DNA of 64,000 bases from Bacillota bacterium (GCA_023665365.1 JAMPEA010000004.1:32823-96822); one strand, 5' to 3'; positions 901 through 51,648 are shown, counted from the first letter of the stretch. Numbers and translations are program-made. The notes: generated by a model from the letters alone, not told the origin.

Positions 901-928
901 CCCCGTCAAACGCGGAGGTCTGATTGGG
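901..928. repeat. Single copy of the CCCC...GGGG hairpin family (ccccgtcaaacgcggaggtctgattggg)
   Basis: Near-identical to the first unit of the 47622 array (ccccatcaaacgcggaggtttgacgggg). Lies in a convergent intergenic gap. Confidence 0.5.
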
Positions 929-2822: not shown

Positions 2823-3386
2823 TCAACGCCCGCGCGTCAGCTCGCAAAAAAGTTCTCGGACGTTTTTTCGCAGTTCGTCAAGCCCGTTCGAGTTGTCTAA
2901 AACTCTCGTAGCGACGGCTTTCAAACTGTCCTCGTCCGCCTGCGCGCATATCCTGCGCATAGCTTCTTCCGACGAAAACCCACGTCTATTCAGTCTTTCT
3001 ATGCGGGCTTTTAGCGGCGCGTAGACCAGCACGATTTCGTCGAACAGCTCCTCCGCCCCTATCTCGACGAGCAGCGGCATTTCCACGACAAGCGGGTCGC
3101 GCATATCTTCTTTTATGCGCTTTAAAATGCGCGGATGCGCAAGCGCGTTGATACGGGCGCGCGCGTCATCGTTTGAAAACACGATTTCGGCAAGTTTTTT
3201 TCTGTCCGCCGCTCCGTCTTGCACAGCGCTCGGGAAAGCCTCTGCTATCTGCGAGACGTACTCGGGATTTTCAAGCAGTTCGTCATTTATTCCGTCCGCG
3301 CTAAGCGTAGGCAAGCCAAGCTCCTTTGCGGCTTTTAACGCCTCGCTCTTGCCCGAGCCTATTCCGCCTATGATTGCGATTTTCAT
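2823..3386 (-). CDS. coaE: Dephospho-CoA kinase
   Basis: P-loop 'IIGGIGSGKS' at the N-terminus, and the length fits. AGAGG precedes the internal ATG (M10 of the track ORF), which avoids overlap with polA. Confidence 0.9.
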   Translation of the reverse strand: MKIAIIGGIGSGKSEALKAAKELGLPTLSADGINDELLENPEYVSQIAEAFPSAVQDGAADRKKLAEIVFSNDDARARINALAHPRILKRIKEDMRDPLVVEMPLLVEIGAEELFDEIVLVYAPLKARIERLNRRGFSSEEAMRRICAQADEDSLKAVATRVLDNSNGLDELRKNVRELFCELTRGR

Positions 3387-27318: not shown

Positions 27319-27347
27319 CCCCGCAAAACCGTGGCGTTCTGCGGGAC
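27319..27347 (-). terminator. Terminator hairpin of the CCCCGCAAAAC family after the PI-PLC-like gene
   Basis: The minus strand reads CCCGCAGAAC-gccac-GGTTTTGCGGGG followed by CTTTTTTAT. The sequence is related to the hairpin units at 47.6 kb and 51.6 kb. Confidence 0.55.
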
Positions 27348-31378: not shown

Positions 31379-32611
31379 TTAATTTTCTTCGAGGTGCGCC
31401 TTGCAAGCGTTTTCTGCAAGCTCGACAAGCGCATAAAGTTCCTGCTCGCTATCCGCTTTGACAATCGCGCCGTGTTGCGCCATAAGACAGACCTTGCAAT
31501 CGCCCGCAAGTTCGGCGGCTTTTTCGTAGCCCTTTTTTGAAAGTATCATCTTCGACGGCAGGCACTTGATTTCATCGCCTAACTTTTCCTTGTATTCGTC
31601 GCCGACGACCGTCATAGGTTTGCCTATCGCGCAAACCGCGGTTATATATCGCGGGCACGCAAATCCTACGACTTTGCCATTCAACGTAATCTTTTTCGCA
31701 ACAGCTTCGCTGTTTTGACTCTGCTGTGCGTCGCTTTCTATATTTTCGTTGGTGACTTCGTCACTTTGACTCTGCTGTCCATCACTATCATTCTTTTCGG
31801 TGACTTCGGCAACTTCGTTGCTTTGACTTTGCTGTTCGTCTCTGTCTTGCTTTTCAGCGACTTCGGCAACTTCGTTGCTTTGGTTCTGTTTTTCGTCGCT
31901 TTCTATATTTTCGGCAACCTCATTGCTTTGGCTTTGATTTGCGTTGCCATCGTTATTTTTGTCGGCTTCTGCGGGTTGAGTGTTTTTGTCGACCTCGACT
32001 TTTTCCTTTGAGGTGAGCTTGTACACGACCTGCTCGATAAACGCGTTTATCGGGTTTATATGCGCTGTGCCGCCCTTGTTTTCGGCAAGGATTTCCGCCG
32101 AGCAAGCCTTATCCAAAACGTCCGTCGCTTTGAGGAGCTCCTTCAAACTGCGCGCCTTGACGACCGCGCCCGCATCGGGCATAAAACAGGCGTTGCGATA
32201 GCCCGCAAGCGACGTAACGATTTCCGCCGCCACGTTTTTGGACGAGCACTTGACCGTCACGCCGAGCAGTTTTGCCACGTTATCCATGACCGCTTGCAGA
32301 GGCTTGCGCTTGCTCGAATATTCGAGAATAGCGTCGCTGTCCACGATAGCCGCGACCTCGGACATTTTGTCCTGACGGATAGCGCAAAAAAGTATAACCG
32401 CCGCCGCGCGGAAGTTGCCCTCGAACGACTCGATATTCTTGTCGTTGACAAATACCACGTCCTTTTCGCCGATATTGTTCAAGTCGGCTTTTTGGGCGGT
32501 GATTGCAATGCCGTCGCCGTCGCGCACCGCGATATATCCGCTTTCGATGAATTTTTTTTCTGAAAAGAGTTTTGCGCACTCGCTGATACTGCCTATGAGT
32601 TTGCTGTCCAT
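31379..32611 (-). CDS. Class II aldolase/adducin-like domain protein interrupted by an acidic Q/S/E-rich repeat linker
   Basis: 410 aa. The N-terminal ~200 aa and C-terminal ~100 aa resemble aldolase-II halves ('MAQHGAIVKADSEQELYALVELAENACKA'). The middle ~90 aa is repetitive ('QSNEVAEVAEKQD...'). Confidence 0.55.
   Translation of the reverse strand: MDSKLIGSISECAKLFSEKKFIESGYIAVRDGDGIAITAQKADLNNIGEKDVVFVNDKNIESFEGNFRAAAVILFCAIRQDKMSEVAAIVDSDAILEYSSKRKPLQAVMDNVAKLLGVTVKCSSKNVAAEIVTSLAGYRNACFMPDAGAVVKARSLKELLKATDVLDKACSAEILAENKGGTAHINPINAFIEQVVYKLTSKEKVEVDKNTQPAEADKNNDGNANQSQSNEVAENIESDEKQNQSNEVAEVAEKQDRDEQQSQSNEVAEVTEKNDSDGQQSQSDEVTNENIESDAQQSQNSEAVAKKITLNGKVVGFACPRYITAVCAIGKPMTVVGDEYKEKLGDEIKCLPSKMILSKKGYEKAAELAGDCKVCLMAQHGAIVKADSEQELYALVELAENACKAHLEEN
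31700..31975 (-). repeat. In-frame imperfect tandem repeat (~50-60 nt units, 4-5 copies)
   Basis: Reiterated gacttcggcaacttcgttgctttg... blocks encode (Q/N)QSNEVAEV(A/T)EK-like units. Confidence 0.7.
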
Positions 32612-46838: not shown

Positions 46839-47612
46839 CTAAGCTCTGTTTCTGTCGTAGACGTATTTCAGTCCTTTCAGCGCGAGCGCCCTGTCCACAA
46901 CGTCGAACAGCGCAGGCTCGGTCGATGTTACGATTTCGCTTAGACCGCCCGTTGCGACCGCCTTTGCGTTTTTCATCTCGGGAAGCGCCCTGTACTTTTC
47001 AAGCATGTACTTTACGAGCCCCGTGTATCCGAAGATGATGCCGCTTTGCATACAGGCGCGCGTATTTTTGCCCACGACGTTATCGGGCGTGTCGAGCTCT
47101 ATCCTCGGCAGTTTCGCCGTCGAAGTCGCAAGCGATTCGGCGGAAGTCATAATTCCGGGCGCGATTGCTCCGCCGAGAAACTTCCCGCTTTCGTCCACGA
47201 GATTGAACGTCGTTGCCGAGCCGAAATCCACCTCTATGACAGGACCGCCGTAAAAGCGATACGCCGCCGCCGCGCCTACTATTCTGTCCGCGCCGAGCTC
47301 GGAGGGGTGGTCGTATTCGATTGCAATCCCCGTATCAAGCAAATGCGAAACGCAAAGCGGCTTTGCGCCTATGTAGTCGTGACACATATGTTCTATCGTA
47401 TAGTTGAGCGCGGGCGCGACAGATGACAAGACGACGCCCTCTATATCCGCAAATTTTACGCCCTGTTGTTTGAGCAGGTCGTACAGCACCATTCCGTACT
47501 CGTCGGCGGTGCGGTTGGCTTTTGTGGACATTCGCCAAGAAGCGACGATATTATCCCCGTCGAACACGCCGATTTTTACGTTTGTATTTCCTATATCCAT
47601 TGCGAGTAGCAT
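46839..47612 (-). CDS. coaX: Type III pantothenate kinase
   Basis: 'LLAMDIGNTNVKIGVF' and the 'DFGSATTF' ASKHA pattern. 257 aa. Confidence 0.9.
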   Translation of the reverse strand: MLLAMDIGNTNVKIGVFDGDNIVASWRMSTKANRTADEYGMVLYDLLKQQGVKFADIEGVVLSSVAPALNYTIEHMCHDYIGAKPLCVSHLLDTGIAIEYDHPSELGADRIVGAAAAYRFYGGPVIEVDFGSATTFNLVDESGKFLGGAIAPGIMTSAESLATSTAKLPRIELDTPDNVVGKNTRACMQSGIIFGYTGLVKYMLEKYRALPEMKNAKAVATGGLSEIVTSTEPALFDVVDRALALKGLKYVYDRNRA

Positions 47613-47621
47613 ATTTTTTCA

Positions 47622-47815
47622 CCCCATCAAACGCGGAGGTTTGACGGGGACCCCGATTTATTCACCCCACAAAACAGGGACGTTTTGCGGGGACCCCGAT
47701 ATTATACCCCATAAAATAGGGACATTTTATGGGGACCCCGATTTATACCCCATAAATTGGCAATTTATGGGGACCCCGATTTTTCCCTACAATCGCGGAG
47801 GTTTACCCCTCCGTA
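47622..47815 (-). repeat. Tandem array of 4-5 CCCC...GGGG hairpin units, each followed by ACCCCGAT
   Basis: Units start at about 47622, 47664, 47707 and 47748, with a degenerate one at about 47785. The stems covary (CCCCACAAAAC/GTTTTGCGGGG versus CCCCATAAAAT/ATTTTATGGGG). The A.C mismatches on the plus strand become G.U in minus-sense RNA. Confidence 0.75.
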
Positions 47816-47853
47816 TGTAATTATAAATAGTATATCAAATAATAAAGATAATA

Positions 47854-48264
47854 TCAACTTATATGGGAGTATTGATATTTCAATATCTTGTACGCTTCGT
47901 CGGCGTTATCGCAGTTTAGGACGGCTTTTTCCATAGGACAAATATCCGTCCCCGCGCGGTTTATGATTTTATCCGCGAGAATTTCGTATTCGTACTCAAT
48001 GCCGTATTCCTCCAAAATCCTCTTGCCGCTCTTTGAAAGCGTCTTTGCAAAGACGCTCTTTATGCCGCATTTGACAAAAAGAAAAGCCGCCGCCTTGCCT
48101 ACGACGATATCCGCAACGGAGTAGCCCGCAAGGTCTACTCCGTCCGAGATGAAGTCCATCATAGGTGCAATGCCGCGCTTACTGCTGAAAAGACAGCTTC
48201 CGTCCTTGCAAAGACAGATAGTATGTCCCGCAAGATTATTCTTTGCCGTTGTCAGATCCGTCAT
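47854..48264 (-). CDS. DUF1893 domain protein
   Basis: 136 aa. 'GHTICLCKDGSCLFSSKRGIAPMMDF...VVGKAAAFLFV' matches the DUF1893 (TM1506-like) pattern as I recall it. Overlaps the upstream gene by 29 nt. Confidence 0.7.
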   Translation of the reverse strand: MTDLTTAKNNLAGHTICLCKDGSCLFSSKRGIAPMMDFISDGVDLAGYSVADIVVGKAAAFLFVKCGIKSVFAKTLSKSGKRILEEYGIEYEYEILADKIINRAGTDICPMEKAVLNCDNADEAYKILKYQYSHIS

Positions 48265-51314: not shown

Positions 51315-51503
51315 ATGAACTTTTTTGCAAACGGTGGCTCAAACGGTTGTGGCTGTAACAGTTGCGACATTATCCTTCTTTTGTTGCTCTTAAACGGCTG
51401 CGGCAACAACGGATGCGGCGGATTCGGCTTGACGAACAGCTGTGATCTCGTATGGCTCATTCTCATCTTGTCCTGCCTTTGCGGCGGGAACTGCTGCAAA
51501 TAA
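51315..51503 (+). CDS. Cys/Gly-rich 62-aa peptide with two hydrophobic helices
   Basis: GGAGG 8 nt before the ATG and a 12-bp-stem terminator 20 nt after the stop. Sequence: MNFFANGGSNGCGCNSCDIILLLLLLNGCGNNGCGGFGLTNSCDLVWLILILSCLCGGNCCK (10 Cys). Confidence 0.6.
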   Translation: MNFFANGGSNGCGCNSCDIILLLLLLNGCGNNGCGGFGLTNSCDLVWLILILSCLCGGNCCK

Positions 51504-51522: not shown

Positions 51523-51556
51523 AAGCAATCCCACAGTCGTGGGATTGCTTTTTTTC
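51523..51556 (+). terminator. Strong intrinsic terminator of the small peptide gene
   Basis: AAGCAATCCCAC-agtc-GTGGGATTGCTT followed by T7. Confidence 0.75.
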
Positions 51557-51557
51557 A

Positions 51558-51648
51558 CCCCGCAAAACAGGGACGTTTTGCGGGGACCCCGTATTTACCC
51601 CACAAAACAGGGACGTTTTGCGGGGACCCCGTAGGGGAGGGGTTTTTG
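51558..51648. repeat. Two tandem CCCCRCAAAACAGGGACGTTTTGCGGGG-ACCCCGTA hairpin units plus a G-rich tail
   Basis: Units at 51558-51593 and 51598-51633, same family as 47622-47815. Lies in a convergent gap. Confidence 0.7.

What the first reader, a model, noticed from the sequence alone, without database searches (positions are those of the whole stretch)
47622..47815. Tandem array of covarying CCCC-N-GGGG hairpins between the DUF1893 gene and coaX
Four clear units and one degenerate unit of ~36-42 nt follow each other without spacers. Each is a 10-11 bp hairpin followed by the constant tail ACCCCGAT(W)T.

The units are:
- ccccatcaaac-gcggagg-tttgacgggg
- ccccacaaaac-aggga-cgttttgcgggg
- ccccataaaat-aggga-cattttatgggg
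- ccccataaat-tggc-aatttatgggg

The stems covary (CAAAAC/GTTTTG versus TAAAAT/ATTTTA). The only mismatches are A.C on the plus strand, which become G.U in minus-sense RNA. That suggests the structure matters in the minus-strand transcript that runs into coaX.

Related single units occur at 901-928 and 27319-27347. The latter is placed as a terminator. A second array lies at 51558-51648.

This looks like a genome-specific REP/BIME-like family, but with an unusual tandem, tail-linked architecture.
Basis: seen in the sequence. Interest (0 to 1): 0.6.

Follow-up and report, generated by a model that had tools for sequence, protein, structure and literature searches.

The report
Tandem REP-like hairpin repeats before coaX
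The array is real: it is a cluster of small hairpin-forming repeats of the REP kind that landed in the leader of the coaX gene. The same repeat design, a hairpin plus an ACCCCG tag arranged head to tail, also occurs in many other gut Clostridia and apparently in other phyla, and I found no description of it.

Summary
Window 47622-47778 holds four head-to-tail units: CCCC-stem-loop-stem-GGGG, then ACCCCG, then a 6-9 nt A/T-rich linker. A decayed fifth unit lies at 47785-47812, and a two-unit array at 51558-51631.

Stems covary strongly across 33 distinct family members (0/500 shuffles reach the observed score).

The family is not genome-specific. The same units and head-to-tail arrays occur in other Clostridia MAGs and in 17 metagenome contigs, mostly human gut. 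Similarly built tandem units occur in MAGs labelled Propionibacteriaceae, WOR-3, Rokubacteria and Sphingomonadales.

coaX relatives at 84-92% protein identity lack the array but keep the promoter, so the array sits in the coaX 5' UTR. At another locus, unit number varies between metagenome contigs (2, 3, 5 or more).

The A.C/G.U asymmetry is confined to the fifth stem pair and goes with the tag. Units occur in both orientations relative to transcription, so an obligatory mRNA role is not supported.

Best reading: a REP-like, DNA-level repeat family with a novel tag and head-to-tail architecture, and an unidentified mobilising factor. No Y1 transposase was found nearby. Any effect on coaX mRNA is probably a by-product.

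The parts
47622..47664 (+). Unit 1. Hairpin 47622-47649 (CCCCATCAAAC/GTTTGACGGGG, A.C at pair 5), tag ACCCCG 47650-47655, linker ATTTATTCA. On the minus strand its 3' GGGG lies 9 nt before the coaX ATG.
47665..47706 (+). Unit 2. Hairpin 47665-47692 (CCCCACAAAAC AGGGA CGTTTTGCGGGG, A.C at pair 5), tag 47693-47698, linker ATATTATA. This is the same sequence type as both units of array 2.
47707..47747 (+). Unit 3. Hairpin 47707-47734 (A-T at pair 5), tag 47735-47740, linker ATTTATA.
47748..47784 (+). Unit 4. Hairpin 47748-47772 (12-nt perfect arms), tag 47773-47778, linker ATTTTT.
47785..47812 (+). Decayed fifth unit of the unit-1 sequence type (CCCTACAATCGCGGAGGTTT...), with foot and tag lost. 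On the minus strand it still forms a 6-bp hairpin, CGGAGG-GGTAAA-CCTCCG.
   Evidence: (D3, 85% to unit 1)
47829..47857 (-). coaX promoter: TTGATA, 17 nt, TG-extended TATACT. It is conserved in relatives that lack the array, which places the array inside the coaX 5' UTR.
46839..47612 (-). coaX (type III pantothenate kinase, PF03309), the gene downstream of array 1.
47854..48264 (-). TM1506/DUF1893-family gene upstream of array 1.
51558..51631 (+). Array 2, two units. Hairpins 51558-51585 (G-C at pair 5) and 51598-51625 (A.C at pair 5), tags 51586-51591 and 51626-51631, linker TATTTA. It lies in a convergent intergenic region.
51525..51555 (+). Ordinary intrinsic terminator (GCAATCCCAC-AGTC-GTGGGATTGC followed by T7) of the small + strand ORF. 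It abuts array 2 and is not a family member.
901..928 (+). Probable decayed single copy of the unit-1 type (CCCCGTCAAACGCGGAGGTCTGATTGGG), with no tag.
   Evidence: 11.3 bits, E 0.47

Best explanation
The arrays are clusters of a small, non-coding, hairpin-forming interspersed repeat of the REP kind, that is, selfish or neutral DNA that spreads and amplifies at the DNA level.

The unit is about 40 nt. It has a 10-15 bp hairpin with an invariant CCCC/GGGG foot and an irregular fifth pair. The fifth pair is A.C on this strand and G.T on the other. A conserved unpaired tag, ACCCCG, follows, and then a 6-10 nt linker (A/T-rich in low-GC hosts).

Shown here:
- Units of a few sequence types are dispersed among loci and mixed within arrays.
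- Arrays are head to tail.
- Unit number varies between metagenome contigs at one locus.
- The coaX array is absent from the nearest relatives and lies between the conserved promoter and the start codon.

Inferred:
- New sites arise by a trans-acting enzyme that recognises the folded single strand plus its tag. By analogy this would be a Y1/HUH transposase of the IS200/IS605-RAYT type.
- Arrays then grow and shrink by slippage or unequal recombination between the identical tags.
- As RNA, the units in the coaX leader and in the 3' UTR at 51.6 kb fold into very stable hairpins. These may alter mRNA stability or translation as a side effect, not as the reason for their existence.
For: - The repeats are real and non-random.
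- Covariation: on 33 distinct family members, using the basal 10 pairs of each stem with the loop replaced by GAAA, 95.5% of cells pair. All 6 variable pairs show compensatory changes, and 0/500 shuffles reach the observed score. Slid controls pair 34-57%.
- The same sequence type occurs in both window arrays. The unit-1 type occurs at three sites.
- The same architecture with mixed unit types is seen in other MAGs (L170, L178, L125, L105, L082) and in 17 metagenome contigs (mostly human gut), including an 8-unit array in L322.
- Copy-number polymorphism at one locus with identical upstream flank: 2 units in L326/L330, 3 in L327, 5 or more in L328, whose downstream sequence differs.
- Eighteen coaX loci, from 7 homologues at 84-92% identity, hold no array upstream of coaX. 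The model search covered ten of these loci and found no unit anywhere in them. The two nearest, L189 and L312, were read directly, and they keep the promoter.
- Location pattern is like REPs. Sites are mostly between convergent or co-directional genes, with only one or two of about 19 fully flanked sites in a divergent region (partly re-read).
- Orientation is independent of transcription. Sense: window array 1, L123, L178. Antisense: L125, L170:2771, L321. Flanking genes were checked against Pfam.
- The pair-5 irregularity is position-specific: A.C 18, A-T 22, G-C 8, G.T 1. It is linked to the tag. In an unbiased viral sample it occurs in 22/33 tagged hairpins and 6/56 untagged hairpins with the same foot.
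- No Rfam family matches.
Against: - No transposase or other candidate mobilising gene was found. There is no Y1 signature in any held locus. tblastn with E. coli RayT over 2.7 Mb of held loci gave one hit (L185), and that gene is flanked by unrelated inverted repeats.
- No clean empty-site/filled-site pair was obtained, so transposition as such is not shown. At coaX the original leader is replaced rather than simply interrupted.
- A genome-wide copy number for this organism could not be measured, because only 64 kb is held.
- The link to IS608-type hairpins (four C:G pairs, then an irregular base on the 3' arm, then a guide 5' of the foot) rests partly on my memory of the IS608 sequence. It could not be checked in the library.
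Confidence: 0.62

Rival explanations
1. RNA-level cis element. The hairpins are selected in the transcript, as a 5' UTR stabiliser or translational regulator of coaX or as a 3' UTR exonuclease block. The G.U pairs mark the sense strand.
For: - Both window arrays lie on the transcribed strand in the orientation that turns A.C into G.U.
- The minus-sense RNA folds to -85.7 kcal/mol, against -75.9 for the plus sense.
- The last hairpin's GGGG is the only Shine-Dalgarno-like sequence before the coaX ATG.
- In phages, a similar tagged hairpin is always sense, between the tail-chaperone stop codon and the tape-measure RBS.
- REPs are reported to stabilise mRNA (PMC6006769 background, read).
Against: - The asymmetry is confined to pair 5. 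At pairs 6-10 there are 4 A.C and 6 G.T.
- Family members lie antisense to both flanking genes in L125, L170:2771 and L321.
- coaX relatives do without the array.
- No U-tract follows the hairpins. The scan's terminator-like sites all lie outside the array and are not clearly more than chance (7 found, 2.2 +/- 1.6 expected).
- An RNA role does not explain the tag or the linker.
Confidence: 0.15
2. Pure minisatellite (VNTR). The arrays arise only by local slippage between the 9-10 nt identical tags, with no mobility. The similarity between loci is ancestral.
For: Unit number varies at one locus between contigs, by gain or loss of the same unit type. Identical GGGGACCCCG tags at about 40-nt spacing are good slippage substrates.
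Against: - The same unit types are found at unlinked loci. Arrays mix very different stems that keep pairing.
- The array is present at coaX in this genome but absent in 84-92% relatives whose upstream neighbours differ.
- Single units are common.
- The same design appears in distant taxa.
Confidence: 0.1
3. Array of binding sites for a dimeric dsDNA-binding protein, such as a nucleoid protein or a regulator. The protein would recognise the quasi-palindrome GGGG-N-CCCC repeated about every four helical turns.
For: GGGGACCCC is the most invariant part of the unit. Periods of 42-43 bp are close to 4 x 10.5.
Against: - Periods are variable: 43, 42 and 38 in array 1, 40 in array 2, and up to about 50 in other genomes.
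- The strong covariation of the adjacent stems shows selection for intrastrand pairing.
- Single units are common.
Confidence: 0.05
4. A processed RNA array, either a type III antitoxin (ToxI-like) or a degenerate CRISPR-like array.
For: The units are tandem repeats of 38-43 nt upstream of a gene, similar in size to ToxI repeats (my own knowledge of ToxI).
Against: - The downstream gene is coaX, a housekeeping kinase.
- There are no spacers.
- Arrays occur at many unrelated loci and in both orientations.
- No Rfam hit.
Confidence: 0.02

Closest known systems
REP elements of Proteobacteria (GTAG-tagged REPs mobilised by RAYT/TnpA-REP) and the CGTC-tagged REP super-family (Di Nocera et al. 2013, PMC3733652; Quentin et al. 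2018, PMC6006769)
   Same: - A short (20-45 nt) intergenic palindromic repeat with a GC-rich hairpin foot, variable and covarying upper stem and loop, and a short conserved unpaired tag at one end.
- Species-specific sequence types.
- Found mostly between convergent or co-directional genes, as singles and clusters, with copy number varying between strains.
- CGTC REPs likewise have no known dedicated transposase.
   Different: - The tag is ACCCCG (CGGGGT on the other strand), not GT[AG]G or CGTC.
- The foot is an invariant CCCC/GGGG, with an irregular fifth pair.
- An A/T-rich linker is part of the unit.
- The dominant arrangement is head to tail. The 2013 survey describes that arrangement as absent, under-represented or negligible in GTAG and CGTC families.
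- The hosts are Clostridia.
- No RAYT was found.
BIMEs / REPINs (inverted REP doublets)
   Same: Clusters of REP-type hairpins in intergenic DNA.
   Different: BIMEs and REPINs are built from REPs in alternating, inverted orientation. Here every array examined is direct. Only a few inverted neighbours were seen (L118, L167).
Subterminal hairpins of IS200/IS605 elements (IS608 LE/RE) and the PATE-type derivatives
   Same: - A hairpin of about 20-30 nt recognised as single-stranded DNA.
- A 4-nt guide immediately 5' of the foot, and an irregular or extrahelical base that sets strand specificity (PMC5027513, PMC6006769).
- From memory, the IS608 hairpin also has a CCCC/GGGG foot followed by an irregular T on the 3' arm.
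   Different: There are no two-ended elements, no tnpA or tnpB between or near the units, and the units are far shorter than an IS. The cleavage or target site is unknown.
BOX elements of Streptococcus pneumoniae (tandem boxB modules) and MIRU-VNTR of mycobacteria
   Same: Intergenic tandem modules of about 40-50 nt whose number varies between strains. They are often co-transcribed with flanking genes.
   Different: BOX has flanking boxA and boxC modules. MIRUs are not simple tagged hairpins. Neither shares sequence or the foot-plus-tag design. This comparison is from my own knowledge and was not tested here.
Intrinsic (Rho-independent) terminators
   Same: GC-footed hairpins. The CCCCGYAAA foot is common in real terminators.
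   Different: No U-tract follows on either strand, the tag replaces it, and units sit in a 5' UTR and in tandem.

Membership tests
REP / RAYT system (canonical) | Conserved GT[AG]G tetranucleotide 0-2 nt 5' of the hairpin foot | tested here: not met
   The flank is CGGGGT on one strand and ACCCCG on the other in all units. The definition is taken from PMC6006769.
REP / RAYT system (canonical) | Short hairpin with GC-rich basal stem, and variable upper stem and loop that keep pairing | tested here: met
   Invariant CCCC/GGGG foot, 10-15 bp stems, 2-8 nt loops. Covariation is significant, with 0/500 shuffles reaching the observed score.
REP / RAYT system (canonical) | Many dispersed intergenic copies per genome | tested here: inconclusive
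   There are 2 arrays plus 1-2 decayed copies in the 64 kb held. Related genomes show 3-5 sites per 8-13 kb locus. A whole-genome count is not possible with these tools.
REP / RAYT system (canonical) | A RAYT (Y1 HUH) gene flanked by the repeats (REPtron) | tested here: inconclusive
   None was found in the window or in about 2.7 Mb of loci. The one RAYT-like gene (L185 6528-7004) has unrelated flanking inverted repeats. The rest of each genome could not be searched.
BIME / REPIN | Two REPs in inverted orientation as the basic unit | tested here: not met
   All arrays are head to tail.
CGTC-tagged REP super-family | CGTC (TGTC/CCTC) tag, 8-9 bp stem starting with A/T pairs, 4-5 nt loop, CCA tail | tested here: not met
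   The stem starts with four C:G pairs, is 10-15 bp long, and has a different tag. A CA dinucleotide, often CCA, does precede the foot in many copies.
IS200/IS605 element or PATE | Left and right ends with subterminal hairpins flanking tnpA/tnpB, or a two-ended miniature | tested here: not met
   Each unit has one hairpin, and no tnpA/tnpB-like ORFs lie between or beside units.
Intrinsic terminator | GC-rich hairpin followed by a U-tract | tested here: not met
   No T-run follows any unit on either strand. The scan places no terminator inside the array.
CRISPR array | Repeats separated by unique spacers of about 26-72 nt; cas genes | tested here: not met
   Units abut through 6-10 nt conserved linkers. 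The flanking genes are coaX and TM1506.
Type III toxin-antitoxin (ToxI-like repeats) | Tandem repeats directly upstream of a ToxN-type endoribonuclease gene | tested here: not met
   The downstream gene is type III pantothenate kinase (PF03309). Arrays occur at unrelated loci.
Any Rfam family | Match at the family's gathering score | tested here: not met
   0 matches in the window and in 6 related loci. Only chance-level hits appear at E up to 10.

The most novel reading that the evidence does not exclude
The unit defines a third, so far undescribed super-family of tagged palindromic repeats. Its parts are a hairpin with a CCCC/GGGG foot, an irregular fifth pair, an ACCCCG tag, a short linker, and head-to-tail arrays.

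It would span many phyla: Clostridia, Actinomycetota, Alphaproteobacteria, Acidobacteriota, Chloroflexota, WOR-3, Rokubacteria and Saccharibacteria. A related fixed copy sits in siphophage tail modules.

This would imply a widespread, unidentified trans-acting factor that reads this single-stranded structure, either a new HUH/Y1 class or a conserved host enzyme.
Probability: 0.22. Interest if true: 0.75.

Novelty: new variant of a known kind. Interest (0 to 1): 0.5.

Why it matters
REP-type repeats are well studied in Proteobacteria but hardly at all in gut Clostridia. Their known super-families are defined by two tags, GTAG and CGTC.

A family with a different tag, an IS608-like irregular base and a head-to-tail growth mode would do three things if confirmed genome-wide:
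1. Add a new class to the catalogue of bacterial small repeats.
2. Point to an unknown mobilising enzyme.
3. Give strain-typing markers, because unit number varies between metagenome contigs at one locus.

Locally, it shows how such repeats can rebuild the leader of an essential gene. The coaX 5' UTR grew from about 50 nt to about 210 nt of stacked hairpins.

Tried and rejected
- **Rfam.** Gathering scans of the window and six related loci, plus a permissive scan of the array, found nothing real.
- **Literature string searches.** GGGGACCCC/GGGGTCCCC and longer foot-plus-tag strings gave no relevant paper. The REP surveys I read contain no GGGG/ACCCC-tagged family.
- **Neighbour-gene clustering.** Clustering ORFs around 117 genome loci found no protein family that travels with the hairpin.
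- **Y1 transposase search.** A regex search and tblastn with E. coli RayT gave one unrelated RAYT-like gene, in L185.
- **Hairpin pairs flanking 1-2 kb segments.** L177, L119, L112 and L318 enclose ordinary genes, namely alanine racemase, SpoVT and others.
- **blastn of the array** against annotated plasmids and phages gave no match.
- **Promoter reading of the TATAAT-like linkers on the minus strand.** The scan finds no promoter inside the array.
- **Replication-strand bias from local GC skew.** My tally from the per-locus skews was 21 concordant and 10 discordant sites. This is too noisy, and too confounded with gene direction, to use.
- **Intramolecular triplex and G-quadruplex readings of the G4-C4-G4 layout.** I considered these and set them aside on strand-polarity and loop-length grounds. 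This is reasoning only and was not computed.
- **Cross-phylum count.** My first impression was that more than 117 genome hits is by itself far beyond chance. I tempered this after seeing that the CCCCRYAAA foot is common in ordinary terminators. The argument now rests on the features the pattern did not force: pair-5 A.C, tandem predecessors, and multi-copy families.

Full report
**1. What is there**

The window is identical to contig JAMPCP010000011 of MAG GCA_023666095.1. This is an uncultured Clostridia-type Bacillota. Its CoaX is 68% identical to that of Candidatus Limadaptatus.

Between the TM1506/DUF1893 gene (47854-48264, minus) and coaX (46839-47612, minus) lie four complete units read on the + strand. 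Each unit has these parts:
- a hairpin with a CCCC...GGGG foot and a 7-8 bp variable upper stem,
- a 3-6 nt loop,
- the tag ACCCCG,
- a 6-9 nt A/T-rich linker ending in CA or TA.

The periods are 43, 42 and 38 nt. A decayed fifth unit follows at 47785-47812. A second array of two units lies at 51558-51631.

Chance is excluded. CCCC-N18-26-GGGGACCCC gives 5 matches against 0.01 expected. TRF scores are 147-174. The covariance model gives E = 1e-15 to 1e-23 for the six units, and nothing else in 64 kb scores above 15 bits.

The site at 901-928 is a decayed, untagged copy of the unit-1 type. The site at 27319-27347 is an ordinary terminator.

**2. Local context**

A sigma-70-type promoter lies at 47857-47829 on the minus strand: TTGATA, 17 nt, then a TG-extended TATACT.

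The same promoter sequence is kept upstream of coaX in relatives whose CoaX is 92% (L189), 91% (L312) and 87% (L190) identical. There it is followed by only about 45-50 nt of leader and no repeat unit.

The model found no unit anywhere in ten loci from four CoaX homologues at 84-92% identity. Four further loci were fetched. Of these only L312 was read, and it has no unit upstream of coaX.

The array is therefore an addition inside the coaX 5' UTR, and the original leader sequence is no longer recognisable.

Array 2 lies in a convergent intergenic region. It sits next to the terminator of a small Cys/Gly-rich ORF and about 77 nt past the stop of a 775-aa gene on the minus strand.

No unit is followed by a T-run, and the terminator scan places nothing in the array.

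**3. The family elsewhere**

A scan of viral contigs gave 70 loci.

Many Clostridia MAGs carry the same unit, including the tag and an A/T-rich linker, in head-to-tail arrays whose neighbouring units have quite different but fully paired stems. Examples are L170, L178 (7 units), L125, L105 and L082.

A scan for the unit junction in metagenomes gave 17 contigs, mostly human gut, including an 8-unit array in L322.

At one locus with identical upstream flank, unit number differs between assemblies. There are 2 units in L326/L330, 3 in L327 and at least 5 in L328, whose downstream sequence differs. Arrays therefore expand and contract like a minisatellite.

The same sequence types also recur at unlinked loci:
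- the ACAAAACAGGGACGTTTTGC type in both window arrays,
- the unit-1 type at 47622, 47785 and 901,
- several types shared between L170 and L178.

Purely local duplication does not explain this.

**4. Structure evidence**

I took the basal ten pairs of 33 distinct hairpins, with loops replaced by GAAA so that stems of different length stay in register. On these, 95.5% of cells pair. All six variable pairs show double changes (56 cells), and 0 of 500 shuffles reach the observed score. Sliding the partner by 1-3 columns drops pairing to 34-57%.

At pair 5 the counts are A.C 18, A-T 22, G-C 8 and G.T 1. At pairs 6-10 there are 4 A.C and 6 G.T.

I also drew a sample of viral hairpins using the foot only, so it is unbiased for the tag. 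The irregular pair 5 goes with the tag. It is A.C in 22 of 33 tagged hairpins, while only 6 of 56 untagged hairpins have any pair-5 mismatch.

Foot, irregular fifth pair and tag thus form one composite signature, rather than a sign of general selection on one transcript.

**5. Orientation**

By construction, convergent and divergent sites say nothing about orientation. Among co-directional sites re-read with longer ORFs and checked against Pfam:
- Three lie sense: window array 1, L123 and L178.
- Three lie antisense: L125, between BspA-LRR and peptidase S58 genes; L170:2771, after a Mn-catalase gene; and L321. At L321 only the Mem_trans flank has Pfam support.

Divergent regions are rare, one or two of about 19 fully flanked sites.

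In the window, the G-tag strand is the G-rich strand, which is probably the leading-strand sequence. Across loci, local skew is too noisy to decide.

**6. Other phyla**

My first reading, that more than 117 genome hits is far beyond chance, needed tempering. The CCCCRYAAA foot is frequent in ordinary terminators.

Three features that the search pattern did not force nevertheless recur in MAGs labelled as distant taxa:
- Pair 5 is A.C in 50 of 104 distinct hairpins and G.T in 3.
- The repeats form multi-copy families within single genomes, for example 7 loci in one Defluviitaleaceae MAG, 3 loci (4 copies) in one alphaproteobacterial chromosome, and 3 in Acidobacteriaceae TAA166.
- A tagged unit sits 8-11 nt upstream, head to tail, in Propionibacteriaceae (L165), WOR-3 (L162), Rokubacteria (L187), Novosphingopyxis (L146) and an unclassified MAG (L152).

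MAG labels can be wrong. L178, labelled Burkholderiales, encodes DpaA, and L170 from the same MAG encodes a Mn catalase of the spore-coat CotJC type (my reading). Both suggest an endospore former. I therefore rate a true cross-phylum super-family as possible, not shown.

**7. Mechanism**

The design is that of REPs and of IS200/IS605 ends. It has an unpaired conserved tag next to a GC-footed hairpin, a fixed irregular base near the foot, and a variable top.

In those systems a Y1 HUH enzyme binds the folded single strand. The irregular base sets strand choice, and a tetranucleotide 5' of the foot guides cleavage (PMC5027513; PMC6006769).

From memory, the IS608 hairpin also has four C:G pairs followed by an extra T on the 3' arm. 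I could not verify that sequence in the library.

I found no such enzyme next to any unit, which is also the situation reported for CGTC REPs.

The steps divide as follows:
- Shown: dispersal of unit types, arrays, gain and loss of units, and absence from relatives.
- Inferred: trans mobilisation of a folded single strand, and array growth by slippage between identical tags.

As RNA, the coaX leader would fold into four or five hairpins (-85.7 kcal/mol, z = -3.4). The last hairpin holds the only SD-like GGGG, 9 nt before the ATG. Relatives have no evident SD either. An effect on stability or translation is plausible but is probably a by-product.

**8. Comparison and novelty**

The family fails the defining tag of canonical REPs (GT[AG]G) and of CGTC REPs. 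It is not built of inverted doublets like BIMEs or REPINs. It is dominated by the head-to-tail arrangement, which the 2013 survey calls absent, under-represented or negligible in both known super-families.

It is not a terminator, a CRISPR array, a ToxI array or any Rfam family.

I file it as a new variant of a known kind: a REP-like small palindromic repeat.

The open and more interesting possibility is that it represents a widespread third tagged super-family with an unknown reader enzyme.

Noticed in passing
L027 6551-6583 (minus strand is sense); also L002-L071, L204, L207 and prophage copies L124, L126, L179, L180: Many gut siphophage contigs carry a conserved hairpin, GGGG-N(1-2)-CCCC-G...U-GGGG, in the tail module. 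In L027, the one locus read in detail, it sits directly after the stop codon of the frameshifted tail-chaperone (gpT) ORF and just before the AGAGGAGG RBS region upstream of the tape-measure gene. It has the same foot, the same G.U at pair 5 and the same G-run tag as the chromosomal repeats. It has no Rfam match.
   Followed up: partly
window 51315-51503 (+): A 62-aa Cys/Gly-rich ORF (MNFFANGGSNGCGCNSC...CGGNCCK) with an internal duplication and its own strong terminator. From my own knowledge it resembles small YjcZ-type sporulation proteins.
   Followed up: no
L134 about 3087-3165 (minus strand): In a Saccharimonadales MAG, the 5' third of a tRNA (acceptor arm, D-arm and start of the anticodon stem) is followed directly by a tagged hairpin. 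An intact tRNA-Arg follows 4 nt later. It looks like a tRNA gene truncated or replaced at the repeat.
   Followed up: partly
L178 6857-7693, L170 2011-2688: Contigs of MAG137, labelled Burkholderiales, encode dipicolinate synthase subunit A and a CotJC-type Mn catalase, and have low GC. The MAG looks like an endospore-forming Firmicute, so it is mislabelled or contaminated. The window's own CoaX is likewise named '[Bacteroides sp.]' in one source.
   Followed up: partly
L185 6528-7004 (minus): A RAYT/TIRYT-like Y1 transposase gene (HUH motif DHFHVLL, Y motif YIDENPV) in Candidatus Angelobacter. It is flanked by about 27-nt inverted repeats (GTATCAGGGCCCGGGCTTTAGCCGGGCC) that are unrelated to the tagged hairpin 5 kb away.
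   Followed up: yes
window 47600-47860 compared with L189 1940-2030, L312 395-480, L190 2430-2505: The coaX promoter is conserved among relatives. None of the relatives shows a Shine-Dalgarno sequence within 15 nt of the ATG. The gene upstream of coaX differs between close relatives (TM1506, an acetyltransferase, TspO), so this junction is a rearrangement hot spot.
   Followed up: partly
window 31705-31959: A tandem repeat with a 57-nt period and about 3.8 copies (TRF scores 171-181), with an overlapping 48-nt period. It was not examined and is probably a repeat within a coding region.
   Followed up: no
L190 3275-3440: In the 87% relative, the coaX-to-homoserine-dehydrogenase spacer is about 165 nt and is made of short direct repeats (GCGGTAGTGCAGAAA-like). 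In the 85% relative the two genes are 12 nt apart.
   Followed up: no
L087, L103, L185 around the hairpins: In Acidobacteria MAGs, the tagged hairpin is embedded in runs of 7-nt repeats (GATCGGG/GATCGGT).
   Followed up: no
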